A stretch of DNA of 64,000 bases, from contig JAJYVH010000001.1 in NCBI GenBank assembly GCA_021792095.1, forward strand, positions 445,324 to 509,323, read 5' to 3'. The notes under the pieces are model-generated. The model was given only the letters and a program-made list of their open reading frames with translations, was not told the origin of the DNA and did not search any database. Positions within the stretch are counted from its first letter, which is position 1; each line of letters starts with the position of its first letter. Below are positions 5,634-61,953 of the stretch, in pieces. The stretch is from Candidatus Micrarchaeota archaeon (lineage in GTDB: Archaea; Micrarchaeota; Micrarchaeia; Micrarchaeales; CABMGC01). The translations under genes and the position numbers were made by a program.

Positions 5634-6236
5634 CTATTTTAATCTTTGCAATTCGGCCTTTCCTGCGCCCGCAGCCAGCAGCTCGCCAGCCGCGCTCTCG
5701 AGCTGTATGCGCGCCGTGTCCTGCTTCCTCCTGAAATCAGGCACCACAGAGTTAGCGAAGCGGAAGTGCCTCGTGGAGTCGTAGATGCCCTTCATTAGCG
5801 CGTAGTACTCGTCCGCGAGCGCGTACTCCCTTGCCCTTATCGCATCTATAATTTCGCGCTTCAGCTCGCCCACAAGGTCCATCACGCCCAGCAGGTACGG
5901 CACCTCGCCGCTGCCCGACTCCGCCGGGGAGACGAGCCTGCGCTCCTTAAGCACAGTGTAGAATGCGATCGCCTCCACGTACTCCTGGTGCGCCTGCTGC
6001 GAGAAGTACTCCATGCCCTTCTCCCCCGCCTTGAGCCTCCTCTCGAGCCTGCGCATGCGCGCCAGCAGCGCCGCCGCCTCCGCCAGCCGCCTGGCGTGCA
6101 TCAGCGTTATCGCCTTGCCCGCGAGCCTTATCAGCTCCCTGGAGAGCGAGAGCAACGCCTCCCTCCTGCGCTCCAGCTCCTCCAGCCTTCTCTCCACCTT
6201 TCCCATATCCGGAATGCCCTTCATGAAATCACTCAA
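5634..6236 (-). CDS. translin-family protein
   Basis: 200 aa, helical, with the translin/TRAX signature VPYLLGVMDLVGELKREI (YLxGxxDxxGELxR) and EYVEAIAFY. Confidence 0.7.
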   Translation of the reverse strand: MSDFMKGIPDMGKVERRLEELERRREALLSLSRELIRLAGKAITLMHARRLAEAAALLARMRRLERRLKAGEKGMEYFSQQAHQEYVEAIAFYTVLKERRLVSPAESGSGEVPYLLGVMDLVGELKREIIDAIRAREYALADEYYALMKGIYDSTRHFRFANSVVPDFRRKQDTARIQLESAAGELLAAGAGKAELQRLK

Positions 6237-7114
6237 ACACCAGCGCGTCCCTTGCCGCTGTTCCTGAACGCCCAGAACATGTACTGCTGCGCGTAGCCCG
6301 CGTAGGGCCCCCAGCGCTTCTCAGCGAACTCGTGCAGCCTGCCTATGCTCTGCCTCCTGCCGCCGAAGTACGTGCGCTCCATCGCCCGCTGCACCCACGT
6401 GTCTATTGGGAAGGCGTTCAGCCTGCCGTAGCCGAAGAGCAGTATGCAGTCCGCCACCTTGTCCCCTATGCCGTCGAGCTCCATCAGCGCTTCCTTCGCG
6501 CCCTCGTAGCCCTTGCCGCCGAGGCCCCCGAGGTCCACGGAACCGCTGCACTCCTCGGCGAGCGCCTTTATGTACCTGGCCCTGAAGCCGGCCCCGTGAG
6601 CCATAAGGTCGCGCACGCCCGCCTTCGCCAGGGCCTCCGGCTCAGGGAACGACCTGAAGCTCAGCCTGACGCCGCCGGAGTCCAGCGCGTGCTCTTCGCC
6701 ATACGCCGTGATAAGCCTCTTTACTATCCCCCTTATCCTCTTGACGTTGTTGAACTGCGAGATCACGAAGCAGAGCGCCGTTTCCCAGGGTCCGTTCTTG
6801 GTTATGCGCAGGCCCCTGTATCTTTTTGTAGCACGTCTCATGAACGCGTCTGTCTCTATAGCAGCGTATACGCTGCGCATGTCGTCTTCCAGCCTGAAGC
6901 GTGCGGCTATCTCCCTGTCCAGGCGCCTGCCGCCGATCGCGCCGTAGGCCGTGTACTCCAGCCTGCTGCCCGCCTGCCTCGCCTCCACCAGGCTGCCGCC
7001 GCAGGCGTACGTTACCCCATTGCCGTCGCCGCTCGGGTCGCCGAAGAATGCGAGCGGCTGCGCGCTCTGCACAGTGTGCGCAAGGTCGAAGTCCGAGACG
7101 ATCAGGCTACGCAT
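6233..7114 (-). CDS. ogg: HhH-GPD 8-oxoguanine DNA glycosylase/lyase (OGG1 family)
   Basis: LMELDGIGDKVADCILLFGYGRLNAFPIDTWVQR gives the HhH-GPD motif with the catalytic Lys (GDKVADC) and Asp (PIDTWV) arranged as in OGG1. It overlaps the downstream gene by 4 nt. Confidence 0.75.
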   Translation of the reverse strand: MRSLIVSDFDLAHTVQSAQPLAFFGDPSGDGNGVTYACGGSLVEARQAGSRLEYTAYGAIGGRRLDREIAARFRLEDDMRSVYAAIETDAFMRRATKRYRGLRITKNGPWETALCFVISQFNNVKRIRGIVKRLITAYGEEHALDSGGVRLSFRSFPEPEALAKAGVRDLMAHGAGFRARYIKALAEECSGSVDLGGLGGKGYEGAKEALMELDGIGDKVADCILLFGYGRLNAFPIDTWVQRAMERTYFGGRRQSIGRLHEFAEKRWGPYAGYAQQYMFWAFRNSGKGRAGV

Positions 7115-8597: not shown

Positions 8598-8633
8598 TCA
8601 GAATATGCAATGCAGCCATTAATGAATGTGACG

Positions 8634-8804
8634 TTACGGCGTCGTGTAACCGCTGGTCCACGAGCTCGTGTACACGACGTTGGTGGGCACGCCGTTGTTC
8701 TCGTTGCCGCTGTAGTCGTTGGCGTTGCAGTTGAGACGACAGTCATTTCAATTGGTATGGCCGATCGTATGCGCCTGCCAATCACATTCTTTACTTGGGG
8801 CCAT
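8634..8804 (-). pseudogene. orphan relic of a LamG-pilin junction module with an in-frame TGA
   Basis: My minus-strand translation is MAPSKECDWQAHTIGHTN*NDCRLNCNANDYSGNENNGVPTNVVYTSSWTSGYTTP*. The second half matches the WWPLNGNANDYSGxGNNGVxTxVVY junction of the giant pilin genes about 43-52 kb away. The DNA core CGCTGTAGTCGTTGGCGTTGC is shared. Confidence 0.5.
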
Positions 8805-8862
8805 CGTTACGCTCCAGGCATTATGCTCTAGATTATCTAAGGTATCTGAGAAAAAGCAAGCT

Positions 8863-9162
8863 CTATTCCTTCTTCTCGGCGAGTATGTATTTCCTGACTA
8901 CCTTTATTACCTGCTCTATCGCCTTGCGTATGTCTGCCTCTGTCTTGGCGCCGGTGCAGATTATCTTGCCGTTCTTGAAGAGCAGCAGCGCCACCTTCGG
9001 CTCCTTTATCTTGTATATGGCGCCTGGGAACTGCTCCGGCTCGTAGTCCACTGAGTTGGAAGCCTTGGCTATCGCGTACAGGTCCAATTCCACCCCCAGG
9101 TCGGCGCTAGCCACTATGTTCTCTATCTTGAAATTAGGCTTAAGCTCTACCCTCTTGGCCAT
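8863..9162 (-). CDS. single-repeat TATA-box-binding-protein-like protein (half-size TBP)
   Basis: The 99-aa protein from ATG 9162 is MAKRVELKPNFKIENIVASADLGVELDLYAIAKASNSVDYEPEQFPGAIYKIKEPKVALLLFKNGKIICTGAKTEADIRKAIEQVIKVV. That is one complete TBP repeat only. The ORF track extends it to 9282, but the extra 40 aa are not TBP-like. A TTTATAAA box at 9194-9201 fits the 9162 start. Confidence 0.7.
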   Translation of the reverse strand: MAKRVELKPNFKIENIVASADLGVELDLYAIAKASNSVDYEPEQFPGAIYKIKEPKVALLLFKNGKIICTGAKTEADIRKAIEQVIKVVRKYILAEKKE

Positions 9163-9193
9163 GCTGTTACCAGCTTCTATTCCTATGCTGGCA

Positions 9194-9201
9194 TTTATAA
9201 A
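9194..9201. promoter_or_regulatory. TATA-like box TTTATAAA between divergent TBP-like and rpl21e genes
   Basis: This palindromic AT-rich octamer lies 32 nt upstream of the minus-strand ATG at 9162. A second TTAAATA at 9212-9218 faces rpl21e. Confidence 0.4.
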
Positions 9202-9264
9202 CCTTAGTGGCTTAAATACTCTGTCCCGGCCTGTCGGCCGGCGCATTTTCGCATTGGCGATATC

Positions 9265-9552
9265 ATGACTGAACGTTCGCACGGCCTATTCCAGGGCAGG
9301 ACAAGGCACCTTGCAAGGCACCACAAGCCCAGCAGGCTCGGCATAGGCACAATGCTGAAGCGCTTCGGGGTGGGCGACAGGGTTGCTATAGTGCCGAAGG
9401 GCAACTTCAAGGACATACCCCATCCTAGGTACAGGGGAAGGGTGGGCACCGTCACGGAGAAGCGGGGCGGAGCCTACGTGGTGGAATTCATGGTCTCCTT
9501 AAAGACGAAGCGCACGCTTGTGGTAAACCAGCGCCACCTGGAAAAAGTCTAG
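9265..9552 (+). CDS. rpl21e: 50S ribosomal protein eL21
   Basis: 95 aa: HGLFQGRTRHL...GDRVAIVPKGNFKDIPHPRYRGRVGTV, typical of L21e. Confidence 0.9.
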   Translation: MTERSHGLFQGRTRHLARHHKPSRLGIGTMLKRFGVGDRVAIVPKGNFKDIPHPRYRGRVGTVTEKRGGAYVVEFMVSLKTKRTLVVNQRHLEKV

Positions 9553-10124
9553 TATCTCGGCTCCCTGGCGTAAGGCCTGGTGAGCATGTAGAACCTGCTC
9601 TCTCCCTTCAACTCCTCTACTACCCTGTCGGTGAGCAGCTTGACCGGGTCCTGCAGCAGGGGCACGCGTTCCGCTATGTCCCTGAAGCTCTCGAACCTCT
9701 TCGTCTCCCTCGCGTCCAGTATCGCCTTAAGGTGCTTCTTGCCCACGCCGGGAAGCAGCTCGAGGGAGTGCATGCGTATGTTCAGCGGCGAGGCGTTGTT
9801 GAACACGTCGACGAACCTCTGCTCGTCGCCCTTTATTATCTCGCCTATCGCTATGGGCAGCTCGTTCCTGGCCACCTGTGTGAGGTCGTTGTACGTTATC
9901 CTTGACTTTATGAGCGCGACCTTGTCCCTGTCGCCCTTGCCTATGTAGACGCGCTCCTTGATCCTTATGTCGGTCGTCTTGGGCACGACCTCGAGCAGCG
10001 TGAACTTGCCCTCGCCCAGCAGCTGCGCCACGGGCTCCGGCTTGGGCGAGAATGATTTGCCCGTGGGCATGTAGTCGAGCACAAGCGCGTACTCCTCCAA
10101 GCCCTCGTGCGTTTCCTGCATCAT
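9549..10124 (-). CDS. DUF655-family protein (OB fold plus HhH, predicted nucleic-acid binding)
   Basis: 191 aa: EEYALVLDYMPTGK...MHSLELLPGVGKKHLKAILDAR. It sits in the conserved archaeal neighbourhood L21e - Rpo4/F - DUF655. Confidence 0.7.
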   Translation of the reverse strand: MMQETHEGLEEYALVLDYMPTGKSFSPKPEPVAQLLGEGKFTLLEVVPKTTDIRIKERVYIGKGDRDKVALIKSRITYNDLTQVARNELPIAIGEIIKGDEQRFVDVFNNASPLNIRMHSLELLPGVGKKHLKAILDARETKRFESFRDIAERVPLLQDPVKLLTDRVVEELKGESRFYMLTRPYAREPRY

Positions 10125-10148
10125 ACCATCCCCCTGCCTGTTGTAGGC

Positions 10149-10499
10149 TCACTTGCCGGAGTGCGCCTGCACCACTCCCATTATCTTGCCTATCTCGTCC
10201 TCTTCGAAGCTCTTCTTCGTCTTGACGAGTATCTGCTTCAGCTGCGCCACGTCTATAGGCATTATGTCGCATATCTTTATCGCAACGGCCTCTCCCACCC
10301 CGTACTCTTCGAGCTCCTTCATCATCTTCCTTGCCTCTCCCGCGCTTAGCTTGTTGAACTTGCCCATGTGCTCGTAGGCGAGCTTCTGCTCGTAGCCAAG
10401 CTCACCCTCCTTCTTCCTGTCTTCTAGCACCTCCAGAGCCTCGGCCGATGTAACCGGCCTCTTCTGCTCCTGTCCTTTGCCTATCATTTCACTCGGCAT
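10149..10499 (-). CDS. rpoF: DNA-directed RNA polymerase subunit Rpo4 (F)
   Basis: 116 aa: TSAEALEVLEDRKKEGELGYEQKLAYEHMGKFNKL...AIKICDIMPIDVAQLKQIL matches the Rpo4/RpoF pattern. Confidence 0.8.
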   Translation of the reverse strand: MPSEMIGKGQEQKRPVTSAEALEVLEDRKKEGELGYEQKLAYEHMGKFNKLSAGEARKMMKELEEYGVGEAVAIKICDIMPIDVAQLKQILVKTKKSFEEDEIGKIMGVVQAHSGK

Positions 10500-45879: not shown

Positions 45880-47082
45880 ATGGCCGATCAGCCGATCACC
45901 ACCAGTATCGACGATTTGGTCAAGTACGTGCACGAGCACGGCGAGACCGATTCCAGCGCGCTAGCGGTGGCGCTGAGCGTAGGGGAGGCCATAATAGAGA
46001 AATGGGCCGACGTGCTGGAGAAAGCGCAGATAGTGAAGGTGAGCTACAAGCTCGGCAAGATGTTTGTGGCCCCTATGCTCGTCAACCAGGAGGCAGTGGA
46101 ATCCGCCTCGAAGACGGCCGAGCTGAAGAGGGGCATAGTCGAGAGCGAGCTCGCGGCGCAGGTCGACCTGGTCAACCAGATAAACTCGAGGCTTGATGAG
46201 TTCAAGCGCTACGTGGGCGAAGCGGAGAGCGCCTTCAAGTCGAAGGCTGGCACAATAAAGAGCACGATAGACGAGATAGACAGGCTGGGCGCGGAGGCAG
46301 ACAACGCCTACAAGAAGGTATCATCGGAGAAGGAGTACATGGACAAGCTCGGCGCGAACATGGACGCGCAGCTGCGCTCCCTGCAGGAGAAGGCTGCGGC
46401 CGCTGCCGCAGTAGGCGCACCCCAGGATTCGTCGAAGCAGATGGCCGACGACCTTAAGCTCAAGCTGGCGGATTACGAGAACAGGCTGAAGGCACTGGAT
46501 GCGAGCTTCGGCGCAACGCTGAAGCAGAAGAAGCAGGAGTTCGCGGAGCTCTCCGACAGCATAAGGGGAGAGCAGAAGACCATGCACGACATGGTCGACC
46601 AGGAGGAGCGCGCTGTCAAGGAGTACGAGCGCGCCCTGGAGTCGTACAGGCACGATTCCGAGGGCATGAGGAAGCAGGCGGAGCGCGAGCGCAGCAGGAT
46701 AATGGACGACATGGCGAAGTCCGCGGAGGAGGCCAGGAAGGCCTACGACATATCGAGCAGGCAGTCGGCGGAAGTGAGGAAGCAGCTCGACGAGCTGAAG
46801 TCGCGCTTCGGAGGCTACGCTGAGCTGAGCGATAAGCTCAACGACATAAAGAGCAACATAGAGTCTATATCAAGGGAGAAGGAGGAGCTCCGGGCGGAGC
46901 TGACCCAGCTCTCGGAGCAGCTTCGCGCCATATCCGCGCTGGGCGGTTCACAGGCCGGAGACAAGAGCGCGAGGGTCGAGCAGGCGGAAGCGCACGCCGC
47001 GGCCACCTCGAAAAAGGCGCAGAAGCTAGCAGGTGACGTGAAGGACGTCAGGAAGAAGATAGATGGTGTTGCTGGTAAGTGA
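45880..47082 (+). CDS. long coiled-coil protein with N-terminal winged-helix-like domain (pilus locus accessory)
   Basis: 400 aa. The N-terminus is IDDLVKYVHEHGETDSSALAVALSVGEAIIEKWADVLEKAQIVKVSYKLGKMFV. The remainder is heptad-rich and charged. Confidence 0.6.
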   Translation: MADQPITTSIDDLVKYVHEHGETDSSALAVALSVGEAIIEKWADVLEKAQIVKVSYKLGKMFVAPMLVNQEAVESASKTAELKRGIVESELAAQVDLVNQINSRLDEFKRYVGEAESAFKSKAGTIKSTIDEIDRLGAEADNAYKKVSSEKEYMDKLGANMDAQLRSLQEKAAAAAAVGAPQDSSKQMADDLKLKLADYENRLKALDASFGATLKQKKQEFAELSDSIRGEQKTMHDMVDQEERAVKEYERALESYRHDSEGMRKQAERERSRIMDDMAKSAEEARKAYDISSRQSAEVRKQLDELKSRFGGYAELSDKLNDIKSNIESISREKEELRAELTQLSEQLRAISALGGSQAGDKSARVEQAEAHAAATSKKAQKLAGDVKDVRKKIDGVAGK

Positions 47083-47086
47083 GCGA

Positions 47087-48601
47087 ATGGCCGTGGGTGC
47101 TGCCGATCAGGGCAAGGAATACGCCTCTTATGAGCTAGACGCGCACGGGCTCAAGGTGAGCATAAACATACACGACGCCGGCGACTTCGTGCCGCTGTAC
47201 GACGTGACAGTGCCCGGCCTCGGGGACGCCACCAAACTGCTGCTGATTTCGCTCAGGCAGGAGCTGCTCTCCATGGTGCCCATAGACCCCACTAGGATAG
47301 AGGACAAGGAGTACACCGACGAGCTCACGCAGAAGTACGTGGACGCATCCAACCTGGTGATAGACCGCTATCTGCCTGGCTCCTCTCCGGACACAAAGAA
47401 GGTGCTCATAGCCTACATAATCAACTTCATGCTCGGCCTCGGGGAGCTCGAGGCCCCCCTCGCCGACGACAACCTCGAGGAAGTGGCAGTGAACACTTCG
47501 AAGGAGCCCATATGGATATACCACAAGACAGTAGGCTGGTGCAAGACCAACATAATGCTCCACGACGAGAACACTATCTACGACTTCTCGGAGCAGATAG
47601 GCAGGCGCATAGGCAGGCAGATAACGAACCTCAGCCCGCTCATGGACGCCGAGCTGCCTGACGGCTCCAGGGTCAACGCGACGCTCTATCCCATATCGCA
47701 GAAGGGCAACACTATAACGATAAGGAAGTTCGGGAAGAACCCGTGGGCCATGCCGGCCATGGTGGCGAACGGCACGCTGTCGAGCGAGATAGCTGCGCTC
47801 ACGTGGATGGCGGTGGAGAACGAGGTCAGCATTCTCATCTCCGGAGGCACGGCGAGCGGGAAGACGAGCTTCCTCAACGCGATGAGCATATTCCTGCCCC
47901 CGAACAGGAGGATCATATCTGTCGAGGAGACGAGGGAACTGACGCTGCCCGACTTCCTGCAATGGATACCGATGCTCACCAGGCAGCCCAACCCCGAGGG
48001 CAAGGGGGAGGTGTCGCTCTACGACCTCATGATCAACGCGCTCAGGCAGAGGCCTGACGTCATGCTCGTCGGCGAGGTGCGAACGGCCAAGGACGCCGAG
48101 ACGCTGTTCGAGGCGATACACACGGGCCACGCCGTCTACGGGACAGTGCACGCAGACAACGCGCGCGACACCATAGTGCGAATGACAAATCCGCCCATAG
48201 ACGTGCCTAAGATAATGCTCAACGCCTTCGGGGGCGTGATAGCCCTCTTCAGGCACAGGAGGCTCGGTATAAGGCGCGTGCTCGAGTTCGCGGAGGTGCT
48301 GAACAGCGGCGACGTCAACGTGGCGTACAGGTGGGACACCAGGAACGACGTCTTCGCCCAGATATCCGCCTTCGGCAGGCTGGGCGAGACGATAGCGCTC
48401 TACGGCGGCTACAGCAAGGAGGAGATGGAGGCCAACCTCCAGGAGAAGACCGACATAATGAACTGGCTGGTGAAGAACAACGTGCTCAGCGTAGAGGACT
48501 CTGGCTTCGTGGTCTCCAACTACCACAGGGAGCCGGAGAAGGTATTGAAGATAGTGCGAAGCAATCAGCCCTATTCCAGGGAGCTGATAGAGAAGGTGTA
48601 G
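47087..48601 (+). CDS. type IV pilus/archaellum-type assembly ATPase (FlaI/PilB/VirB11 superfamily)
   Basis: Walker A ILISGGTASGKTSFLNAM, Asp box RIISVEETRELTLP, Walker B PDVMLVGEVR and His box IHTGHAVYGTVHA are present. The ORF track starts at 47063; ATG 47087 follows the upstream stop. Confidence 0.85.
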   Translation: MAVGAADQGKEYASYELDAHGLKVSINIHDAGDFVPLYDVTVPGLGDATKLLLISLRQELLSMVPIDPTRIEDKEYTDELTQKYVDASNLVIDRYLPGSSPDTKKVLIAYIINFMLGLGELEAPLADDNLEEVAVNTSKEPIWIYHKTVGWCKTNIMLHDENTIYDFSEQIGRRIGRQITNLSPLMDAELPDGSRVNATLYPISQKGNTITIRKFGKNPWAMPAMVANGTLSSEIAALTWMAVENEVSILISGGTASGKTSFLNAMSIFLPPNRRIISVEETRELTLPDFLQWIPMLTRQPNPEGKGEVSLYDLMINALRQRPDVMLVGEVRTAKDAETLFEAIHTGHAVYGTVHADNARDTIVRMTNPPIDVPKIMLNAFGGVIALFRHRRLGIRRVLEFAEVLNSGDVNVAYRWDTRNDVFAQISAFGRLGETIALYGGYSKEEMEANLQEKTDIMNWLVKNNVLSVEDSGFVVSNYHREPEKVLKIVRSNQPYSRELIEKV

Positions 48602-48603
48602 GC

Positions 48604-49197
48604 ATGCCTGCCGACGGCGATTACGAGCGCGCCGCGGAGGTGGCGGATGCCATAGACAGGACGAGCCCGGGCGCCTCGGAGTCGGTGGACGTTGAGGCGG
48701 TGCTTGCCGAAGGGATGAGCACGAGGGAGCTGAGCTACCAGGAGGTGAGCAGGTCGCTGCAGAAGGAGGGCTTCTACACCGAGCCCGTGCAGGAGGCCAG
48801 GCAGCAGGTGCAGGTCGCGGTGCAGGCCGTAAGGAAGCCGGAGCTGGAAGCGGAGAAGAAGCGCGCCGCCTTCAGCCTCAGGAAGGCCACCGTCGGGCTG
48901 GGCGCGGAGTTCGGCAGGGTGATGGAGGAGAGGAAGGAGCAGGCGGAGGAGAAGAGGCTGATAATGCCCAGGCTCTCGCTGCAGGACCAGGTGTCGGACC
49001 TGGGCAAGATAGAGGAAGGGCTGCAGGAGCGCGTGTTCAGCAGCGACCAGATCGCGATAATAGCCGAGGAGCTGCGCTGGCTCAGCGGTGCCGAGGCGCG
49101 CGTGAGCTCGGAGGAGGCCAATCAGGACCAGAAGGTGCTGCTGGCGATAAGGAGCCAGAAGGTAAGGGAGATAAACGGCATGCTGGCAGGCATGTGA
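48604..49197 (+). CDS. acidic hypothetical protein of the pilus locus
   Basis: This internal ATG lies 3 nt after the ATPase stop: MPADGDYERAAEVADAIDRTSPG.... The ORF-track extension to 48331 overlaps the ATPase in another frame and is Arg/Gly-rich noise. Confidence 0.55.
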   Translation: MPADGDYERAAEVADAIDRTSPGASESVDVEAVLAEGMSTRELSYQEVSRSLQKEGFYTEPVQEARQQVQVAVQAVRKPELEAEKKRAAFSLRKATVGLGAEFGRVMEERKEQAEEKRLIMPRLSLQDQVSDLGKIEEGLQERVFSSDQIAIIAEELRWLSGAEARVSSEEANQDQKVLLAIRSQKVREINGMLAGM

Positions 49198-49213
49198 GCT
49201 TTGGGATGGTGAT

Positions 49214-50569
49214 ATGGCATTCAACTGGCCAAGCAAGAAACAGAAGACTGCGGCGTCAGACGCGACAAGCAAGGGCCAGATAACTGGCTTCACCAAGCCC
49301 AAAAGGTTCCTGTTCTTCAAGGTCAGGTCAAAGCCCATCTACGGCCCCGCTCCGGGCCAGCAGGTGCAGGGAGCGCAAGGTACAGCCCAGCCGAAGCCCG
49401 TGGTGCAACTGAAGCCAACCGTGCAGCCAAAGCCAGTGGCGCAGCCCGGTCCTTTTGTGCAGCAGAAGCAGCCGCAGGCGGCGCAGCCCGCCCAGGCTCC
49501 GCAGCCGGGGCCTGTCGCCCGAGCGGGGCAGGCCGTGCAGCGCAAGCCTTGGTTTGCGCCGCGACCCAAGCCCATGGCTCAGCCGAGGCCAATCGTGCAG
49601 CCGAGCCCAGCCGTGCAATCGAGCCCTGCTGTGCAACAGCAAAGGCGCGGAGTGATGCGTTTCTTCTCTCTGAAGCCCAAGGTCGCCAGGCCGGAGCAGG
49701 CGGGACCGCAGGTTCGCGGACCTGGCGCCAGGCCCACGCAGCTGCAGATATACCTGGTGAGCACTGCCGCAAGGCACAAGGATCTTGAGGCTGCGCTCAG
49801 GGCCCAGAACATAAAGGAGAGCCCGTACGAGTTCGTGAGGAAGATGTTCGTGTATGCGGTAGCCATCACCGTGGTTGTGACGATTGGGGTGGGGACCGTG
49901 ATGCTGGAGTTCGGCGTGCCCCCTGCGGCGTCGCTGCTGCTCGCGCTGGTGCTGGGCCTTGCCTGCTACATGGCGTTCTTCAACAAGTTCATACGCTACC
50001 CGCTGGACAGGAGCGTAGTGCTAGGCAACGAGATAGAGAAGGACATACTGTTCGCAGCCAGGGACATGGTGATAAGCATGCGCTCTGGCATGCCGCTGTT
50101 CAACGCCATAACCGCGGTGAGCACGGGCTACGGCGCTGCCAGCCTGGAGTTCGCGAAGGTGGTGGAGCTGGTGCAGCTCGGCACGCCCATAGAGCAGGCG
50201 ATAGACCAGGTGAGCGAGAGGAGCAAGTCGAAGACGTTCAAGAGGCTGGCGCTGCAGACTACAGTGAGCCTGAAGGCGGGCGCTGACATAGTGGGCTCGC
50301 TGCAGGGAGTGGTCGACGACGTGATGCAGGAGCGCATCATAGAGCTGAGGCGCTACGGCCAGAGGCTGAACGCCCTGGCCATGTTCTACATGCTCTTCGG
50401 TGTTATCTTCCCGAGCATGGGCATAGCTGTGCTGGCCATACTGACTACGTTCGTGAACATATTCACCGTTGACGAGAACACGCTTATATTCGCGCTAGTG
50501 GGAATATTCTTCCTGCAGGTCGTGTTCCTGAACGTGATGCGAAGCTCGAGGCCCACGTTTGCGATGTGA
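49214..50569 (+). CDS. TadB/FlaJ-like T2SS-F domain membrane protein with N-terminal Pro/Gln-rich repeat extension
   Basis: 451 aa. Roughly residues 40-190 are PKPVVQLKPTVQPKPVAQPGPFVQQKQPQAAQPAQAPQPGP...-type repeats. The rest is a T2SS-F-like domain (DILFAARDMVISMRSGMPLFNAITAV...GTPIEQAIDQV) with TM helices. Confidence 0.75.
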   Translation: MAFNWPSKKQKTAASDATSKGQITGFTKPKRFLFFKVRSKPIYGPAPGQQVQGAQGTAQPKPVVQLKPTVQPKPVAQPGPFVQQKQPQAAQPAQAPQPGPVARAGQAVQRKPWFAPRPKPMAQPRPIVQPSPAVQSSPAVQQQRRGVMRFFSLKPKVARPEQAGPQVRGPGARPTQLQIYLVSTAARHKDLEAALRAQNIKESPYEFVRKMFVYAVAITVVVTIGVGTVMLEFGVPPAASLLLALVLGLACYMAFFNKFIRYPLDRSVVLGNEIEKDILFAARDMVISMRSGMPLFNAITAVSTGYGAASLEFAKVVELVQLGTPIEQAIDQVSERSKSKTFKRLALQTTVSLKAGADIVGSLQGVVDDVMQERIIELRRYGQRLNALAMFYMLFGVIFPSMGIAVLAILTTFVNIFTVDENTLIFALVGIFFLQVVFLNVMRSSRPTFAM

Positions 50570-50573
50570 TGCT

Positions 50574-51566
50574 ATGAAGATAGAGTTTGAGAGGCTTGTC
50601 TCCAGGGGTTTGAGCGAGGCGCTCGCCAGGGAGCTCCAGCTGGCGGGCTGGAAGATGGACATAAGCAGGCTCCTCAGGCTTATGGTAATGGGCGGGCTTG
50701 TGCTGTTCGTGGTCATGTCGTTCGCCCTGACGCTGCTCACCAGCCTCGGCCCGCTTGTTTCAGCCGCAGCAGGAATAGTGGCGGCGATAGTGCTGGAGGT
50801 CTCGGTCTACGCCATGCTGGAGCTCAAGATAGAGCAGAGGAAGGGCTTCGTGGAGTCCATACTGCCCGACTACCTGCAGCTCACCGCGGCCAACGTGAGG
50901 AGCGGCATAGCCATAGACAAGTCGCTGATGCTCGCTGCCAGGCCGGAGTTCGGCTTCTTCAGCGAGGACGTCAAGGTGATAGGCAGGGAGCTCTACGGCG
51001 GCGTGACGCTGCAGCAGAGCATGCGCAACCTCGGCGCCAAGTACAGGAGCCTGCAGCTGCAGCACACGATACGCATGATGTTGGAGGGACTGCAGTACGG
51101 AGGCGGCATGACGGACCTGCTGAACCAGATAGCCAAGGACATAAGGAGCCAGCAGATGGTGCAGAAGGAGGTCAGCGGCCAGATGTTCATGTACACTATA
51201 TTCATAGCGTTCGCTGCGCTGATAGGCGCGCCCGTGCTCTACGCGCTGACATCGCAGATGATAACCGTTACTAACACGGTCTGGGCGGGCATACTGCAGC
51301 AGAATCCTGGCGGACTGCCGACAGCAGGCATATCGTTCCTCAGGCCCAGCCCGCCCAAGATAACCATAGCCGAGTACCACAACTTCGCGCTGGCGGCGGT
51401 GCTGCTTATAACCGCCTTCGCGGCCTTCATCGTGTCGGCCATATCGACAGGCTCTATATACAAGGGCATACGCTACCTGCCTATATTCGTGATCGTGGGG
51501 CTCGGCATATTCTTCCTAATCTCCACGCTGATAGGTGGAATCTTCTCCAGCATAAGCGGCGTGTGA
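50574..51566 (+). CDS. TadC/FlaJ-like T2SS-F domain membrane protein
   Basis: MKIEFERLV...ILPDYLQLTAANVRSGIAIDKSLMLAA...GVTLQQSMRNL plus TM helices. The TTG at 50559 in the ORF track overlaps the upstream gene. Confidence 0.75.
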   Translation: MKIEFERLVSRGLSEALARELQLAGWKMDISRLLRLMVMGGLVLFVVMSFALTLLTSLGPLVSAAAGIVAAIVLEVSVYAMLELKIEQRKGFVESILPDYLQLTAANVRSGIAIDKSLMLAARPEFGFFSEDVKVIGRELYGGVTLQQSMRNLGAKYRSLQLQHTIRMMLEGLQYGGGMTDLLNQIAKDIRSQQMVQKEVSGQMFMYTIFIAFAALIGAPVLYALTSQMITVTNTVWAGILQQNPGGLPTAGISFLRPSPPKITIAEYHNFALAAVLLITAFAAFIVSAISTGSIYKGIRYLPIFVIVGLGIFFLISTLIGGIFSSISGV

Positions 51567-51725
51567 ACACTCGACACGGTCGCTGCTGCTAGCATTGCGC
51601 GAGCTGAAGTGCAGCAACCTGCTGGTAATAACGTGGGACTATGAGGGTAAGGAGAGGCTTGGAAGCAGGAAAGTGGTTTTCGAGCCTTTGTGGAAATGGC
51701 TGCTGCAAGCATAGCCGTGGCGCCG

Positions 51726-54386
51726 CTACTGCGGGGTGAGCAGCCCGAGCGCCTGCCACTCGCTGGCCGTGGTCGAGATGGAAGACAAGCCTGGGGTGTT
51801 GTAGGTGCCGAAGAAGTAGGGATAAGTAACACCTCCTATAGCAACGCCGTTGTTGCCTTGGCCGCTGTAGTCGTTGGCGTTGCCGTTCAGCGGCCACCAA
51901 CCCACAAGATTGCCTGTCAATGGCATGCCTGCGATGCCCTCGTTGTAGAGTTGCTGAATTTGTAACGTTGAGAGCGCTGTGCTGTACATCTGCGCGTCAG
52001 CTACTGTTCCGTTGAAGTATGAAGCGGTGTTCGATCTACTGCCTATATACGCACTGGTACCGGAACCTTGTGGAGATAATACGCCACTGCCTGCTGCGCT
52101 GGCCACTTGTACTCCGTTAATCCATAAGCTTACTGCAGTTCCGTTATACCTGCTGGCTAAGAAGTACCATGTATTGAGTTGTATTGCACTGGCTGCGCTT
52201 TTTGCCTCAGACCAACAATTAGAAGTAGTACATACCCATGTTTCGGCTTCGTTTGTGCCACTGTCGTTAACTGCTATTATAGGATTTACCTCGTTGCCAA
52301 GAGCAGAATCCGCACCCAACACTTCCTGCCTTGAACCACAACAACTACCGATATAGTGCTTCCCTCCATTCCATTTTATCCATACGGTCATAGTGGCCAT
52401 GCTTCCTGTTAGGAGAGGAGAAGCGGTGGTTATAGATATATTGTCGAAGCCGTTGAGGTTGCCTATCTGCATGCTGCCGCTCTGCGCTTCCAGAGGCATG
52501 CTGCCAAGATACAGCTGCGGTATTGTGTTCGAGCCACAGCTGCTGCTCGACGTGCAGCCAAGGATTCCAGGGAGTGGTGCAAGCTTCGTGGGCACGGGCA
52601 CGTTCATTATGCTATCTCTACTGTAGTTCGGCAGCAGAGTGTATACTACGCTTGTGGCAACACCGTTGTTCCCCATTCCACTATAGTCATTGGCGTTGCC
52701 GTTCAGCGGCCACCAGCCCACCAATCCCGCGGTGCTTAGAGGTATGCCAGCGACGCCTTCCTGGTAGAGCCGCTGCACCTGTTGCGTTGAGAGCACGGTG
52801 CTGTACACTTGGGCATTTGCAAGGGAGCCTGTAAAGAAGCGGGTGCTATACGCGCCATCAGATCCTATATACATCGCAGGTGTGGGGGCGATTGCACCTG
52901 CTCCAGTGGATGTTGTGGTTAGACGGCCATCAAGGTAGCAGGATGGCACGCCACTGCTGCTTAGCACTAGGACTGCAAGGTGCCATCCGGTTCCTATGCT
53001 TGTTCCACAGTCTATCCACCGTACGTTTTCGAACAGCACCCACAGTTCATTACCTACATTGTCCCAATTGCTCCCTCCTACGCCTATGCCGTATCCAGAG
53101 CCAGGGGAACCTGTGGAACCCAATTTTACAAAAGCACCGTGATCCGATGTGGAAGGAATATACGCCCATACTGCTACGCTTACTGAGTTTACCGCAGTAG
53201 TAGGAAGTGCTGTAGATACGTTGCTGCTCACACCGTTGAAACTGCCTGCCTGTCTGTTGTAGTTCGAGAAGGTGAAGATGCCGTTTGTGGACTGCCTGTT
53301 GAAATAGGCTTGTGCCCTGTCGAGATAAGAAGGAGTGAACTGTGAAGCGAAGTAGTAGCCGTTAGCAACCGCGTTTCGCAGGTTCTCTATGTTCAGCGTG
53401 TCCAAGCCGGGGCCGTAGAGCAGCGCCTTAGTGCCACTGGGCAGGTCGGCGAGTATGCCGCTGGAACTCGGGTAGATCAGGTAGGGCACAGTAGGCAGCG
53501 TGGTCGGTGCTATGTATGCGATCAGGCCAGCGTAATTGTTCTCGCAGCCTTCCAGGCCAATCGCGTTGTACGTAACGATTATTGTGTTCGAGGCCAGCGG
53601 CGCTGTGGAGAATGCCGTTGGTATTGATGAGCATGAAGCACCACTCGTGCTGCTGCTCGGTAGCCAGTAGGTAGTGCCGTAAGCATATGTTAGAATGTTC
53701 CCGCTGCTGGCATAGGTGTTGCTTATGGTGCTAGTCAGGTTGTTGAGGCTGGAGAAAGTGACAGGCCTGAGGCGTCCTTGCTGCGCGTAGTAGAGGTCCG
53801 GGGTGCCGTTTAGCGGCAGCGATGCGCTTACAGGTATGCTATAATCGTACTTATTTCCCGAGGTGGTGTTGATGCGGAGCCGCATAGTGTATGAGATGCC
53901 TATGTGGTAGGCGTCTGGCTGGAACACACTTGGCACAGTTTCGCTGACGTTGACTGCCCCTGCGATGCCAAGCTGCGATATTATGGATTTGTTGTAGCTC
54001 CCTAGCGTAAGGTTGCCCATCGCGTTCTCAGGGTAGCCGGAGGTGTCGTTCGGCAGCGTGCCGTTCCTCACGAGGCTAGCGAGATAGAGGCTAGTGTTCG
54101 TTATGAAGTTGCCCTTCCTCAGACTCGGCGTTGATTCGTATGTGGCGAGCACTGATATGGCCTTGCCTAGGCTCGCAGCGGCAAAGGAGTCGGTGCTCGA
54201 GTTTATCATCGCACCGTAGTTGCTGGCTATCTCTGCTGTTGCGGTGGCTTGGGCGACGTTGCTAGCGCTTATGTTGAAGAGCACGAGGGCGAAGAGCTCG
54301 GCAAGCATAAGCATGAAGAGGAGCAGCATGAGTATCGTCATAAGCTGTCCTTTGCTGCTCTTATTAAGCGCCTTTGCTAGCTCCAT
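51726..54386 (-). CDS. giant pilin-like surface protein with class III signal peptide and two LamG-type modules
   Basis: 886 aa with N-terminus MELAKALNKSSKGQLMTILMLLLFMLMLAELF. Two junctions of the type ...LSTQQVQRLYQEGVAGIPLSTAGLVGWWPLNGNANDYSGMGNNG and ...LQIQQLYNEGIAGMPLTGNLVGWWPLNGNANDYSGQGNNG are present. The W..L(N/D)G...D.SG.GN.G signature is typical of Laminin_G_3/ConA-like domains. Confidence 0.75.
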   Translation of the reverse strand: MELAKALNKSSKGQLMTILMLLLFMLMLAELFALVLFNISASNVAQATATAEIASNYGAMINSSTDSFAAASLGKAISVLATYESTPSLRKGNFITNTSLYLASLVRNGTLPNDTSGYPENAMGNLTLGSYNKSIISQLGIAGAVNVSETVPSVFQPDAYHIGISYTMRLRINTTSGNKYDYSIPVSASLPLNGTPDLYYAQQGRLRPVTFSSLNNLTSTISNTYASSGNILTYAYGTTYWLPSSSTSGASCSSIPTAFSTAPLASNTIIVTYNAIGLEGCENNYAGLIAYIAPTTLPTVPYLIYPSSSGILADLPSGTKALLYGPGLDTLNIENLRNAVANGYYFASQFTPSYLDRAQAYFNRQSTNGIFTFSNYNRQAGSFNGVSSNVSTALPTTAVNSVSVAVWAYIPSTSDHGAFVKLGSTGSPGSGYGIGVGGSNWDNVGNELWVLFENVRWIDCGTSIGTGWHLAVLVLSSSGVPSCYLDGRLTTTSTGAGAIAPTPAMYIGSDGAYSTRFFTGSLANAQVYSTVLSTQQVQRLYQEGVAGIPLSTAGLVGWWPLNGNANDYSGMGNNGVATSVVYTLLPNYSRDSIMNVPVPTKLAPLPGILGCTSSSSCGSNTIPQLYLGSMPLEAQSGSMQIGNLNGFDNISITTASPLLTGSMATMTVWIKWNGGKHYIGSCCGSRQEVLGADSALGNEVNPIIAVNDSGTNEAETWVCTTSNCWSEAKSAASAIQLNTWYFLASRYNGTAVSLWINGVQVASAAGSGVLSPQGSGTSAYIGSRSNTASYFNGTVADAQMYSTALSTLQIQQLYNEGIAGMPLTGNLVGWWPLNGNANDYSGQGNNGVAIGGVTYPYFFGTYNTPGLSSISTTASEWQALGLLTPQ
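52663..52778 (-). repeat. 116-nt block, 114/116 identical to 59098-59213
   Basis: Aligned by eye, the only differences are ctatagtcat vs ctgtagtcgt. It encodes QRLYQEGVAGIPLSTAGLVGWWPLNGNANDYSGMGNNG in both genes. Confidence 0.85.
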
Positions 54387-56557: not shown

Positions 56558-57096
56558 CAGCTAACACCGAAGCTCTTGTTCGTCCAGATCATTATCTGCA
56601 CCGTAGCCGGCCTGCCATCAAGCGTTGCCGATTTTGTTGCCGTCTGTATGGCGTACGGATTCTTGTTGAAAGGGTATGAGCCCATAGCAAGCGTTACGTT
56701 GCCAGTGCTTATCACTATGTAGTAATCGTATCCCACACCGATGAGCTGCTTCGTTGCCTGGTAGCTGGTGGAGTTGTGATTAGTCATCGCAGCCAGGGTA
56801 TATATCTTTGCCAGTGATAGCTGGCTCCCGGAGCCGGTGCCGAGGCCTATGCTCACGTTGCTCCATGAGCCTGTGTTGCTTATGTTCACCTGCGAGGCCC
56901 AATCCTGCGGGCTGCCAGGGGTCAGTATCCTGCTCTGCAGGCTCTGTGCCTGCGCCTGCATGTTCTGCAGTCCGAGGCCGTAAGTGCTGGAGAGCTGTCC
57001 GCTCATGCTGGACCACGCAAAGGTGAGCAGCACGAGCGCGGTGCCGAATATCACCATGGCGAATATCACGTCGAAGGACCAGAATTGCGCTTTCAA
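56557..57096 (-). CDS. small pilin-like protein (class III signal peptide)
   Basis: 179 aa with N-terminus MKAQFWSFDVIFAMVIFGTALVLLTFAW. Confidence 0.65.
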   Translation of the reverse strand: MKAQFWSFDVIFAMVIFGTALVLLTFAWSSMSGQLSSTYGLGLQNMQAQAQSLQSRILTPGSPQDWASQVNISNTGSWSNVSIGLGTGSGSQLSLAKIYTLAAMTNHNSTSYQATKQLIGVGYDYYIVISTGNVTLAMGSYPFNKNPYAIQTATKSATLDGRPATVQIMIWTNKSFGVS

Positions 57097-58367: not shown

Positions 58368-58460
58368 TCATAACCATCATAAAATCGATTTTACGTTATC
58401 TATGTATAACATTAAATATATAAATACGCGCATCCGAAGTTACGGTGCGTCCCAGCGCCC

Positions 58461-61838: not shown

Positions 61839-61953
61839 CCGTACACCGTGCAGTGCAAATGGCGCATGCTGCTATCCTCTCAAACAAATATTATATGTCT
61901 AATGGAAGCAGGCATATTTATAGCGCGCAGTCCGTCCCTGTGCCGTCTGTGAT

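What the first reader, a model, noticed from the sequence alone, without database searches (positions are those of the whole stretch)
8863..9282. Half-size TBP: a single TBP repeat instead of the canonical two-repeat saddle
Canonical archaeal and eukaryal TBP is a pseudo-dimer of two direct repeats (about 180 aa). This gene encodes one clean repeat: IENIVASADLGVELDLYAIAKASNSVDYEPEQFPGAIYKIKEPKVALLLFKNGKIICTGAKTEADIRKAIEQV.

It is 99 aa from the promoter-consistent ATG at 9162. The 40 extra residues of the longest ORF are not TBP-like. No second repeat is encoded on either side: rpl21e lies upstream and a non-coding region with a pilin relic lies downstream.

It would have to homodimerise to make a DNA-binding saddle, as in the hypothesised ancestral state. 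Alternatively it pairs with another half encoded elsewhere (a split gene), or it acts as a TBP decoy.
Basis: partly seen in the sequence, partly recalled or inferred. Interest (0 to 1): 0.6.

Follow-up and report, generated by a model that had tools for sequence, protein, structure and literature searches.

The report
Single-repeat TBP of Micrarchaeota archaea
This archaeon, and at least 80 related Micrarchaeota species, encode only one half of the normally two-part TATA-binding protein at the TBP locus, so two copies probably pair up to bind DNA, which would be a natural test of the old idea that TBP began as a homodimer.

Summary
Window 8863-9162 (-) encodes a 99-aa protein that is one complete TBP repeat (Pfam PF00352, 109 bits). 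No second repeat lies anywhere in the 64-kb window.

It is not an artefact. The 80 best-matching loci come from 80 different Micrarchaeota MAGs, on contigs up to 727 kb. Each carries the same single-repeat gene, and every ORF stops 2-27 aa after helix H2.

The family is under strong purifying selection (dN/dS about 0.075). It is more conserved than ribosomal protein L21e next door. The DNA-contact Asn, Phe, Phe and Thr and the YEPEQFPG stirrup are invariant or nearly so.

The gene sits divergently beside rpl21e. That is where all seven two-repeat TBPs I looked up sit (six from Anstonellales or other Micrarchaeota, one labelled 'ainarchaeum'), so it is the positional ortholog of the TBP gene.

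In those relatives the two repeats are 58-92% identical, against 42-54% in reference TBPs, and they share gene-conversion tracts. The most likely history is that recombination between near-identical repeats collapsed the gene to one repeat. The product would then work as a two-fold symmetric homodimer, with polarity set by TFB and BRE.

Two things are not shown: dimerisation itself, and the absence of another TBP elsewhere in these genomes. I found no paper describing this.

The parts
8863..9162 (-). Single-repeat TBP gene (99 aa plus stop): a short basic N-terminal tail (MAKRVELKP), one complete TBP repeat, and a 7-aa tail after helix H2
   Evidence: Pfam PF00352 at 109 bits, model positions 1-85 of 85. 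PDB TBPs at E about 5e-45. Orthologs in the 80 best-matching MAG loci. Start codon supported by the family alignment. dN/dS about 0.075.
9193..9201 (-). TATA-box-like element TTTATAAAT (core TTTATAAA is palindromic), 31 nt upstream of the ATG, implying a leaderless or nearly leaderless mRNA
   Evidence: Read directly from the sequence. The intergenic region is 91% identical in the closest relative, L001. That it acts as a promoter is inferred.
9163..9264 (.). Divergent intergenic region shared by the TBP gene and rpl21e (a second A/T-rich element, TTAAATA, lies at 9212-9218, 47 nt upstream of rpl21e)
   Evidence: The TBP|rpl21e divergent arrangement is conserved in most of the 80 single-repeat loci. 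It is also present in all seven two-repeat TBP proteins looked up.
9265..9552 (+). Ribosomal protein L21e gene, the conserved divergent neighbour that marks the TBP locus
   Evidence: Pfam PF01157, E 1.5e-13. Synteny.
9549..10124 (-). DUF655 gene. It belongs to the conserved rpl21e-rpoF-DUF655 cluster and is inverted here relative to two-repeat relatives.
   Evidence: Pfam PF04919, E 2.7e-62. Orientation compared.
10149..10499 (-). RNA polymerase subunit RpoF (Rpb4-like) gene, part of the same conserved cluster
   Evidence: Pfam PF03874, E 1.7e-09. Synteny.
8598..8862 (.). Non-coding stretch downstream of the TBP gene. It holds a degraded C-terminal fragment of a pilin-like LamG protein (about 8635-8735, - strand: ...NANDYSGNENNGVPTNVVYTSSWTSGYTTP*). 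No TBP-like sequence in any frame.
   Evidence: Six-frame translation and blastn to the ends of intact genes in L030. tblastn for TBP found nothing here.

Best explanation
The gene encodes the general TATA-binding protein of this Micrarchaeota lineage in a single-repeat form. Two identical 99-aa subunits are proposed to pair through their S1 strands and H2 helices into the usual ten-stranded saddle. Each subunit would supply one Asn, two Phe and one Thr to the DNA surface, and one YEPEQFPG stirrup. The dimer would be exactly two-fold symmetric, so it could not set promoter direction. Direction would come entirely from TFB reading the BRE beside the TATA box, as is already largely true in archaea.

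Origin: in Micrarchaeota and their relatives the two TBP repeats evolve in concert through gene conversion. Recombination between the near-identical direct repeats deleted exactly one unit in the ancestor of a large clade. The names carried by the MAGs put Micrarchaeales and Micrarchaeaceae in that clade.

Shown here:
- one repeat only;
- lineage-wide conservation under strong purifying selection;
- intact DNA-contact and stirrup residues;
- positional orthology with the two-repeat TBP gene;
- concerted evolution of repeats in relatives.

Inferred:
- homodimerisation;
- TATA binding and TFB recruitment;
- that this is the only TBP in the genome;
- the direction of change (loss rather than retention).
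For: **One repeat, not an artefact**
- One full PF00352 repeat is present, with E about 5e-45 to solved TBPs.
- There is no second repeat in the window.
- Among the 80 best-matching loci (80 different MAGs, contigs up to 727 kb), none except L059 has a second repeat within about 6 kb.
- All 80 ORFs stop 2-27 aa after helix H2.

**Functional constraint**
- Median dN/dS is 0.075 over 880 pairs.
- Mean identity to the window protein is 81%. In the same genome pairs it is 67% for L21e, 50% for RpoF, 70% for DUF655 and 66% for MoxR. The TBP is the more conserved in 49 of 49 pairs against L21e.
- The DNA-contact Asn, both Phe and Thr are invariant in the family. The YEPEQFPG stirrup is conserved in at least 99% of members.

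**It is the TBP locus**
- All seven two-repeat TBP proteins looked up lie divergently beside rpl21e-rpoF-DUF655, like the single-repeat gene. Six are from Anstonellaceae or other Micrarchaeota and one is labelled 'Candidatus ainarchaeum'.
- More distant single-repeat forms (62-63% identity) lie beside rpl21e too.

**One sequence can serve in both positions**
- In 121 related two-repeat TBPs the N and C repeats are mostly 58-92% identical to each other. The figure is 42-54% in P. woesei, M. jannaschii and S. acidocaldarius.
- These repeats share derived residues with the single-repeat family: A42, K45, FKNGK and C63.
- P0204 has repeats 91-92% identical, depending on the columns compared (sequence).
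- A head-to-tail fusion of two window proteins, modelled with the natural two-repeat TBPs as its alignment, gives pLDDT 91 and pTM 0.82. It superposes on whole TBP structures at TM 0.82-0.89 and rmsd about 2.2 A.

**Origin**
- The single-repeat clade is monophyletic (98% bootstrap).
- It groups with the Micrarchaeota N and C repeats to the exclusion of reference repeats (88.5%).
- Repeats in relatives carry tracts of 60-150 nt that are identical or nearly so, including at synonymous sites.
- Three-repeat TBPs, the reciprocal product expected from unequal exchange, also exist.
Against: - No tool here could scan a whole genome of the clade. A canonical TBP, or a second divergent half, elsewhere in the genome is therefore not excluded.
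- Dimerisation, DNA binding and TFB binding are untested.
- The fused-dimer model was steered by an alignment of real two-repeat TBPs, so it shows compatibility only. The same fusion folded without an alignment failed (pLDDT 43).
- The position of the single-repeat clade relative to the N and C repeats is unresolved (34% bootstrap). An ancestral single repeat followed by repeated re-duplication is therefore not ruled out.
- The 80 loci used for the conservation comparison were chosen by similarity to this protein, which slightly inflates its apparent conservation.
Confidence: 0.68

Rival explanations
1. Accessory single-lobe paralog acting as a decoy or regulator. A normal two-repeat TBP is encoded elsewhere in the genome. 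The 99-aa protein modulates transcription, for example by titrating TFB or capping a TBP, like Halobacterium TbpA or the Thermococcales single-TBP-domain proteins.
For: Single-TBP-domain proteins that coexist with full TBPs are known (PMC3597702). I could not scan whole genomes of this clade.
Against: - The gene occupies the exact locus where relatives keep their two-repeat TBP.
- It is more conserved than L21e.
- It keeps every DNA-contact residue.
- It stays about 45% identical to canonical repeats. The Thermococcales proteins are described as significantly diverged from the TBPs of the same genomes.
- None of the full-length TBPs listed has a longest contig matching the long contigs that carry the single-repeat gene. 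This is weak evidence, because only the top 120 hits are listed.
Confidence: 0.13
2. Split gene. The protein is one half of a heterodimeric TBP, and the other half is encoded elsewhere, as with other split genes in DPANN archaea.
For: Split genes occur in reduced DPANN genomes (general knowledge). Whole genomes were not scanned.
Against: - The protein is equidistant from the N and C repeats of relatives (60% against 58.5%; 64 closer to N, 50 closer to C) and carries no lobe-specific signature.
- The 80 best genome hits come from 80 different assemblies, so there is no second close copy.
- The more divergent short forms found in the exhaustive search are themselves beside rpl21e. They are orthologs, not partners.
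Confidence: 0.08
3. Surviving ancestral state. Micrarchaeota never had a fused TBP in this clade, and the two-repeat genes of sister orders arose by later, repeated tandem duplication of a single-repeat gene.
For: - By distance the single-repeat clade lies outside the N+C group, and several proteins have their own N and C repeats as sisters (P0204 100%, P0223 96%).
- In P0204 the N-terminal tail is repeated as the linker.
- L059 may show a fresh tandem duplication.
Against: - Gene-conversion tracts explain the N/C similarity without any re-duplication.
- The two-repeat TBP labelled 'ainarchaeum', likely outside the phylum, sits at the same locus, and the reference archaeal TBPs also have two repeats. 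Loss is therefore the more parsimonious reading.
- The single-repeat clade also carries a derived inversion of rpoF-DUF655.
Confidence: 0.1
4. Artefact or pseudogene: a truncated remnant of TBP produced by an assembly or sequencing error, or by decay.
For: None found.
Against: The ORF is intact in the 80 best-matching loci, from 80 independent assemblies made with several technologies, including long-read MAGs. dN/dS is 0.075. Start, stop and promoter region are conserved.
Confidence: 0.01

Closest known systems
Canonical archaeal TBP (two-repeat pseudo-dimer; e.g. P. woesei 1PCZ/1AIS, M. jannaschii 2Z8U, S. acidocaldarius 1MP9)
   Same: Same repeat family (PF00352). About 43-49% identity to each repeat. 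The DNA-contact Asn, Phe, Phe and Thr and the YEPEQFPG stirrup are all present. It occupies the same locus as the TBP of related Micrarchaeota.
   Different: One repeat per polypeptide (99 aa against about 180-190). The saddle would have to form between chains and be exactly symmetric. It scores 103 bits against NCBIfam TBP cut-offs of 181-347, which probably explains why NCBI records label these proteins 'hypothetical protein'.
Symmetrised two-repeat TBPs of Anstonellales, other Micrarchaeota and a MAG labelled 'Candidatus ainarchaeum' (e.g. P0122, P0199, P0204, P0227)
   Same: Closest relatives (about 55-60% identity). They share the derived residues A42, K45, FKNGK and C63, and the same position beside rpl21e-rpoF-DUF655.
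   Different: They keep two covalently linked repeats, which are homogenised by gene conversion (58-92% identity within a protein). The window protein is the collapsed one-repeat form.
Halobacterium TbpA and the Thermococcales monopartite TBP-domain proteins (Brindefalk et al. 2013, PMC3597702)
   Same: Stand-alone proteins of about 90-100 aa consisting of one TBP domain.
   Different: Both coexist with full-length TBPs. TbpA is reported as not essential for viability. The Thermococcales proteins are significantly diverged from the TBPs of the same genomes. The Micrarchaeota protein is a highly conserved, TBP-proper repeat at the TBP locus of a whole clade. That paper does not mention it.
Hypothetical ancestral homodimeric TBP (duplication-fusion model of TBP origin)
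   Same: A single-lobe protein expected to dimerise into the saddle.
   Different: Here it is most likely a secondary reversion from a two-repeat gene, not a relic.

Membership tests
TBP (TATA-binding protein, PF00352 repeat family) | Sequence matches the TBP repeat model above the curated threshold | tested here: met
   109 bits against a gathering score of 22.9, model positions 1-85 of 85. E about 5e-45 to solved TBPs.
TBP (TATA-binding protein, PF00352 repeat family) | Two tandem repeats in one polypeptide forming the pseudo-symmetric saddle | tested here: not met
   There is one repeat only. No second repeat in the window. The ORF stops 2-27 aa after helix H2 in 80 of 80 related loci.
TBP (TATA-binding protein, PF00352 repeat family) | DNA-contact residues: Asn in strand S1, two intercalating Phe, and Thr in the TGAK strand. 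The positions are assigned from my knowledge of TBP-DNA structures. | tested here: met
   N15, F45, F62 and T70 are present in the window protein and 100% conserved in the 111-member single-repeat family.
TBP (TATA-binding protein, PF00352 repeat family) | TFB/TFIIB-binding acidic stirrup (YEPEQFPG in the C-terminal lobe) | tested here: met
   Y-E-P-E-Q-F-P-G is conserved in at least 99% of the family. Binding itself was not tested.
TBP (TATA-binding protein, PF00352 repeat family) | Full-length match to NCBIfam TBP equivalog or subfamily models | tested here: not met
   Best score 103 bits against cut-offs of 181-347, because only half of each model is covered.
TBP (TATA-binding protein, PF00352 repeat family) | It is the organism's general initiation factor (orthology with the TBP gene) | tested here: inconclusive
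   Positional orthology with the two-repeat TBP genes of relatives is clear. Whole genomes could not be scanned for another TBP.
TBP (TATA-binding protein, PF00352 repeat family) | Binds and bends TATA DNA, and recruits TFB and RNAP | not testable with these tools
   This needs biochemistry. The fused-dimer model is compatible with a saddle.
Accessory single-TBP-domain proteins (Halobacterium TbpA; Thermococcales monopartite TBP-domain proteins) | Coexists with a full-length TBP in the same genome | not testable with these tools
   No tool scans a whole genome. There is no second TBP in the 64-kb window or in the roughly 12-kb loci.
Accessory single-TBP-domain proteins (Halobacterium TbpA; Thermococcales monopartite TBP-domain proteins) | Lies at a locus separate from the main TBP gene. 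For the Thermococcales type, it is also strongly diverged from TBP proper. | tested here: not met
   It sits at the TBP locus itself. It is 43-49% identical to canonical repeats and matches PDB TBPs at E about 5e-45.
Split gene (two separately encoded halves) | A second, complementary half-gene in the same genome, with N- and C-lobe identities divided between the two | tested here: inconclusive
   The protein has no N or C signature. There is one copy per assembly among the 80 best hits. Divergent short forms are orthologs at the same locus. A distant partner elsewhere in the genome is not excluded.

The most novel reading that the evidence does not exclude
A whole archaeal clade, at least 80 species-level Micrarchaeota genomes, runs all its transcription with a homodimeric single-lobe TBP and has no two-repeat TBP at all. 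This would be a natural reversion to the postulated pre-duplication state. It was made possible because the two lobes in this phylum had become functionally interchangeable through concerted evolution. The perfectly symmetric factor would leave promoter polarity entirely to TFB and BRE. Repeat number in TBP (one, two or three) would be evolutionarily labile through unequal recombination.
Probability: 0.6. Interest if true: 0.85.

Novelty: new variant of a known kind. Interest (0 to 1): 0.75.

Why it matters
TBP is the textbook internally duplicated pseudo-dimer. Reviews of its evolution treat archaeal and eukaryotic TBPs as always having equal numbers of N and C lobes (PMC7221094). The homodimeric ancestor has so far been only a hypothesis.

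A conserved single-lobe TBP sitting at the TBP locus of a whole clade would give that hypothesis a natural protein to test. The open questions it could address include:
- whether a single lobe dimerises;
- whether the dimer binds and bends TATA DNA;
- whether it accepts TFB on either stirrup;
- how direction is then set.

It also shows how lobe asymmetry can be lost. The steps would be concerted evolution of the repeats, then collapse to one repeat.

There is a practical point too. NCBI records label these proteins 'hypothetical', and the protein falls below the NCBIfam TBP cut-offs. Surveys that rely on full-length TBP models could therefore under-report TBP in these genomes.

Tried and rejected
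**Checks that came back negative**
- Second repeat in another frame or nearby: tblastn of the repeat, and of a full two-repeat TBP, against the window and 80 related loci found only the one repeat. L059 is the exception.
- The longest ORF (139 aa, GTG 9282) as the real product: rejected. The extension is not conserved and is often blocked by stops in relatives.
- Assembly artefact or pseudogene: rejected.
- Origin from the N or the C repeat specifically: no signal either way.
- P0302 and P0328 (62-63% identity) as candidate 'second halves': rejected, because both sit beside rpl21e.
- TFB gene in the window: none among the 36 ORFs scanned.
- Rfam and tRNA scans: only tRNA-Gln and tRNA-Cys, which are unrelated to the finding.

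**Modelling**
- AlphaFold of a fused dimer without an alignment was uninformative (pLDDT 43).

**Promoters**
- I looked for an unusual, more palindromic TATA consensus in the window's promoters. The sample was too small and the elements looked like ordinary archaeal TTTAWATA-type boxes, so I did not pursue it.

**Literature**
- Seven searches were run.
- Four papers were read.
- No description of a single-repeat TBP in Micrarchaeota or DPANN turned up.
- The library lacks most subscription-journal papers, so this absence is not proof.

- A whole-genome check for a second TBP.
Full report
**1. The observation**

ORF 8863..9282 (-) exists. Its product from ATG 9162 is 99 aa and matches Pfam TBP (PF00352) once, over the entire 85-position repeat model (E 9.7e-32, 109 bits against a cut-off of 22.9). 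Against solved structures it aligns about equally well to the first and the second repeat of archaeal TBPs. For 1pcz the scores are 66.7 and 86.6 bits, for 2z8u 73.0 and 79.7, and for 1mp9 79.5 and 70.9. The whole-protein E-value is about 5e-45.

The 40 residues that the longest ORF adds upstream contribute nothing to the match. In the closest relatives the Met aligns with position 9162. The upstream frame there is either blocked by stop codons or unrelated. A TATA-like TTTATAAAT lies at 9193-9201, 31 nt upstream of the ATG.

tblastn of the repeat against all six frames of the 64-kb window finds only the gene itself. The upstream neighbour is rpl21e, transcribed divergently. Beyond it lie DUF655 and rpoF.

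The 265 bp downstream are non-coding. They carry a decayed copy of the C-terminal end of a pilin-like LamG protein (window - strand ...NANDYSGNENNGVPTNVVYTSSWTSGYTTP*). It matches the intact ends of three genes in locus L030.

**2. It is a conserved lineage trait, not an accident**

A search of 5.8 billion proteins returned more than 100 clusters of 93-132-aa proteins that are 70-95% identical to the query. Each has a single PF00352 domain. Where named, they come from Candidatus Micrarchaeota or Micrarchaeia MAGs, a few of them mislabelled Marsarchaeota. Some lie on contigs up to 650 kb.

A scan of one genome per GTDB species found 365 relatives. The best 80 loci come from 80 different MAGs, including contigs of 587, 658 and 727 kb and Nanopore MAGs. 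The results for these loci are:
- In 79 of the 80, both halves of a two-repeat TBP query map onto the same single stretch of DNA.
- In all 80, the ORF ends 2-27 residues after helix H2.

Selection on the family is strong:
- Median dN/dS is 0.075 over 880 pairs with dS between 0.1 and 1.5.
- Between the window and 49 loci that hold all the neighbouring genes, the half-TBP is on average 81% identical.
- In the same pairs L21e is 67% identical, DUF655 70%, MoxR 66% and RpoF 50%.
- The half-TBP is the more conserved in 49 of 49 comparisons with L21e. The loci were ranked by similarity to this protein, which biases the figure a little.

By my knowledge of TBP-DNA structures, four positions contact DNA: the S1 Asn, the two intercalating Phe and the Thr of the TGAK strand. 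All four are invariant in the 111-member family. The YEPEQFPG stirrup that binds TFB/TFIIB is conserved in at least 99% of members.

**3. It sits at the TBP locus**

Related Micrarchaeota do have normal-length TBPs of 186-208 aa. They are named Anstonellaceae, Anstonellales, Micrarchaeia or Micrarchaeota.

I looked up seven of these two-repeat proteins:
- P0122, from Anstonellaceae, on an 881-kb contig;
- P0199, from a MAG NCBI names Candidatus Micrarchaeota archaeon CG11;
- P0164, P0168 and P0133, named Micrarchaeota;
- P0204;
- P0227, labelled 'Candidatus ainarchaeum'.

Every one lies divergently next to rpl21e. In six of them rpoF and DUF655 follow. P0204's 1.1-kb contig ends just past rpl21e.

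That is the position of the single-repeat gene in the window and in most of the 80 loci. The two most divergent single-repeat representatives from an exhaustive HMMER search (P0302 and P0328, 62-63% identity) also sit beside rpl21e.

The half-size gene is therefore the positional ortholog of the TBP gene, not an extra copy at some other site. In the single-repeat clade the rpoF-DUF655 pair is inverted relative to the two-repeat genomes. This is a derived character of that clade.

**4. How it arose**

*Repeat similarity in the two-repeat relatives.* I cut 379 repeats out of all retrieved proteins and aligned 85 core columns. In 121 two-repeat relatives the N and C repeats of the same protein are 46-92% identical, and mostly 58-92%. 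In the P. woesei, M. jannaschii and S. acidocaldarius TBPs the figures are 42%, 54% and 49%.

Both repeats of the relatives share derived residues with the single-repeat family:
- A42, where the reference TBPs have I, L or V;
- K45, where they have R or H;
- FKNGK, where they have F-S/R/K/G-S-G-K;
- C63.

*Where the window protein falls.* It is equidistant from the relatives' N repeats (60%) and C repeats (58.5%), with 64 proteins closer by N and 50 closer by C.

A neighbour-joining tree with 200 bootstraps gives these results:
- The single-repeat clade is monophyletic (98%).
- That clade plus all Micrarchaeota-type N and C repeats excludes the reference repeats (88.5%).
- Several proteins have their own N and C repeats as sisters: P0204 100%, P0223 96%, P0226 76%, P0163 62%.
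- The placement of the single-repeat clade relative to N and C is unresolved (34%).

*DNA-level evidence.* The two repeats of one gene contain tracts of 60-150 nt that are identical or nearly so, including at synonymous sites, flanked by diverged sequence. This holds in L081, L084, L087, L089 and L090. It is the signature of intragenic gene conversion.

Outside such tracts the repeats differ mainly at synonymous sites. In P0204 the repeats are 91% identical in protein but 78% in DNA, and 40 of 80 same-residue codons differ. This is what the family's low dN/dS predicts after an older homogenisation event.

*Most likely history.* Direct repeats this similar are substrates for recombination that removes or adds exactly one unit. 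The one-unit product is the gene studied here.

Three-repeat TBPs, the reciprocal product, also exist: P0125, P0157, P0158 and P0228, and P0245 with an N-N-C arrangement.

The reference archaeal TBPs and the two-repeat TBP labelled 'ainarchaeum', which sits at the same locus, all have two repeats. The single-repeat state is therefore most simply a secondary collapse. An ancestral single repeat with repeated re-duplication remains possible, at about 10%.

**5. How it most likely works**

A single TBP lobe is half a saddle. The sister lineages show that essentially one sequence can occupy both positions of the saddle. Repeats within one protein reach about 91-92% identity, with identical S1 strands (IENIVAS), as in P0204 and P0122.

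A head-to-tail fusion of two window proteins was modelled with 102 natural two-repeat TBPs as the alignment. It gave pLDDT 91 and pTM 0.82. The model superposes on complete TBP structures (1mp9, 1ais, 1pcz and others) over 184-193 alignment columns, at TM 0.82-0.89 and rmsd about 2.2 A.

That model is guided by its alignment, so it shows compatibility and not proof. The same fusion without an alignment failed (pLDDT 43).

I therefore propose a non-covalent homodimer with exact two-fold symmetry. It would carry two DNA-contact sets and two TFB-competent stirrups. Such a factor cannot contribute to promoter polarity. Polarity would rest on TFB reading the BRE, which is already the main determinant in archaea (established knowledge, Bell et al. 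1999, cited from memory).

These steps are inferred, not shown:
- dimerisation;
- DNA binding;
- TFB recruitment;
- the absence of any other TBP in the genome.

**6. Rivals**

- *Accessory or decoy paralog, with a normal TBP elsewhere (about 13%).* Such proteins are known: Halobacterium TbpA and the Thermococcales monopartite TBP-domain proteins (PMC3597702). Those coexist with full TBPs. TbpA is reported as not essential, and the Thermococcales proteins are significantly diverged from the TBPs of the same genomes. The protein here sits at the TBP locus, is highly conserved and is a TBP-proper repeat.
- *Split gene with a partner half elsewhere (about 8%).* Against it: there is no N or C lobe signature. 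Only one copy per assembly appears among the 80 best hits. The divergent short forms are orthologs.
- *Ancestral state (about 10%).* See section 4.
- *Artefact (about 1%).* Refuted.

No tool here could scan a complete genome of the clade, and this is the main gap.

**7. What is known, and novelty**

The window is ordinary Micrarchaeota chromosome. It encodes L10e, S6e, L21e, eIF2-gamma, Cdc48, the topoisomerase VI B subunit, diphthamide synthase, an OGG glycosylase, type IV pilus genes and many pilin-like proteins.

Seven full-text searches and four papers on TBP evolution or DPANN genomics mention no single-repeat TBP in Micrarchaeota or DPANN. One paper states that archaeal and eukaryotic lineages have identical numbers of N and C lobes (PMC7221094). 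Another simply counts TBP as conserved in about 89% of the DPANN genomes it tested (PMC8407392).

The protein scores 103 bits against NCBIfam TBP cut-offs of 181-347. NCBI records label these proteins 'hypothetical protein', probably for that reason, and this may be why the feature has gone unremarked.

I rate it a new variant of a known kind: TBP in a one-lobe, presumably homodimeric form. The searchable library lacks most subscription-journal papers, so an earlier mention cannot be excluded.

**8. Verdict**

- One correction applies: the single-lobe state is probably a reversion, not a relic.
- Interest is 0.75. A specialist would find a clade-wide single-lobe TBP surprising, and it makes the homodimeric-ancestor hypothesis directly testable.
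- The decisive missing piece is a whole-genome check for any other TBP gene.

Noticed in passing
L059:2-403 (REEA76, JAGWHJ010000032.1, at the contig end): The 3' end of another repeat lies in frame, directly upstream of the single repeat (...NGKIICTGGKTEADIRKAIDQVIKIVKNYILEP-QEEKRTKGARKPVLNPKFKIENIV...). Its first roughly 98 nt are DNA-identical to the end of the complete repeat. This is either a very recent tandem duplication that re-creates a two-repeat TBP, with the contig broken at the repeat, or an assembly artefact.
   Followed up: partly
L081:6001-6570, L084:6001-6582, L087:3001-3603, L089:3001-3561, L090:552-1115: The two repeats of two-repeat Micrarchaeota-type TBP genes share tracts of 60-150 nt that are identical or nearly so, including at synonymous sites, flanked by diverged sequence. 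These are intragenic gene-conversion tracts. Protein identity between the two repeats of one TBP is mostly 58-92%, against 42-54% in reference archaeal TBPs.
   Followed up: yes
Proteins P0125 (283 aa), P0157 (275 aa), P0158, P0228, P0245 (272 aa, N-N-C arrangement): These are archaeal-type TBPs with three tandem repeats, known here mostly from short metagenomic contigs. They may be the reciprocal products of unequal recombination between repeats. Their organisms and function are unknown.
   Followed up: partly
window 8635-8735 (- strand): Decayed C-terminal fragment of a pilin-like LamG-type protein (...NANDYSGNENNGVPTNVVYTSSWTSGYTTP*) in the non-coding stretch between the TBP gene and the class II aminoacyl-tRNA synthetase (GlyRS-like) gene. 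The same conserved C-terminal motif ends three intact genes in L030, one of which begins with a class III signal peptide (QSAMEYLMTYGWSILIIAVVLGA).
   Followed up: partly
window 9549-10499 compared with L081:4502-5535: In the single-repeat clade the rpoF-DUF655 pair is inverted relative to rpl21e. The two-repeat genomes keep the co-directional rpl21e-rpoF-DUF655(-ksgA) operon. This is a second derived character of the clade.
   Followed up: partly
window 6233-7114 (-): An 8-oxoguanine DNA glycosylase (HhH-GPD plus OGG_N) lies 1.7 kb from the TBP gene. OGG_N is itself a distant TBP-like fold (PMC3597702). It is part of a normal glycosylase and is not a missing TBP half.
   Followed up: no
Proteins; loci L008, L039, L043, L050, L054, L076: Annotation problems. 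NCBI records label these single-repeat TBPs 'hypothetical protein', and the protein scores below the NCBIfam TBP cut-offs. Several MAGs that carry the gene are labelled Marsarchaeota, 'Saccharimonadales bacterium' or 'bacterium', which are probably mis-binned or mis-classified Micrarchaeota contigs.
   Followed up: partly
window 45880-62445: A large type IV pilus-like region. It holds a T2SSE ATPase (47063-48601) and two T2SSF membrane proteins (49214-51566). A run of very large ORFs follows, up to 1125 aa (51726-61838, - strand). Their hydrophobic N-termini suggest pilin-like proteins; I did not scan them against Pfam.
   Followed up: no
Proteins P0244 (376 aa) and P0313 (329 aa): Eukaryote-type TBPs with four repeat matches, that is, the whole core domain duplicated in tandem. 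This is probably a gene-model or assembly artefact, or a tandem gene fusion. I did not examine them.
   Followed up: no
Protein P0372 (109 aa): A single-repeat protein of the two-repeat sequence type (VEYEPEQFPGAILKLK...). It could be an independent collapse to one repeat in another lineage, or just a fragment. Its context was not examined.
   Followed up: no
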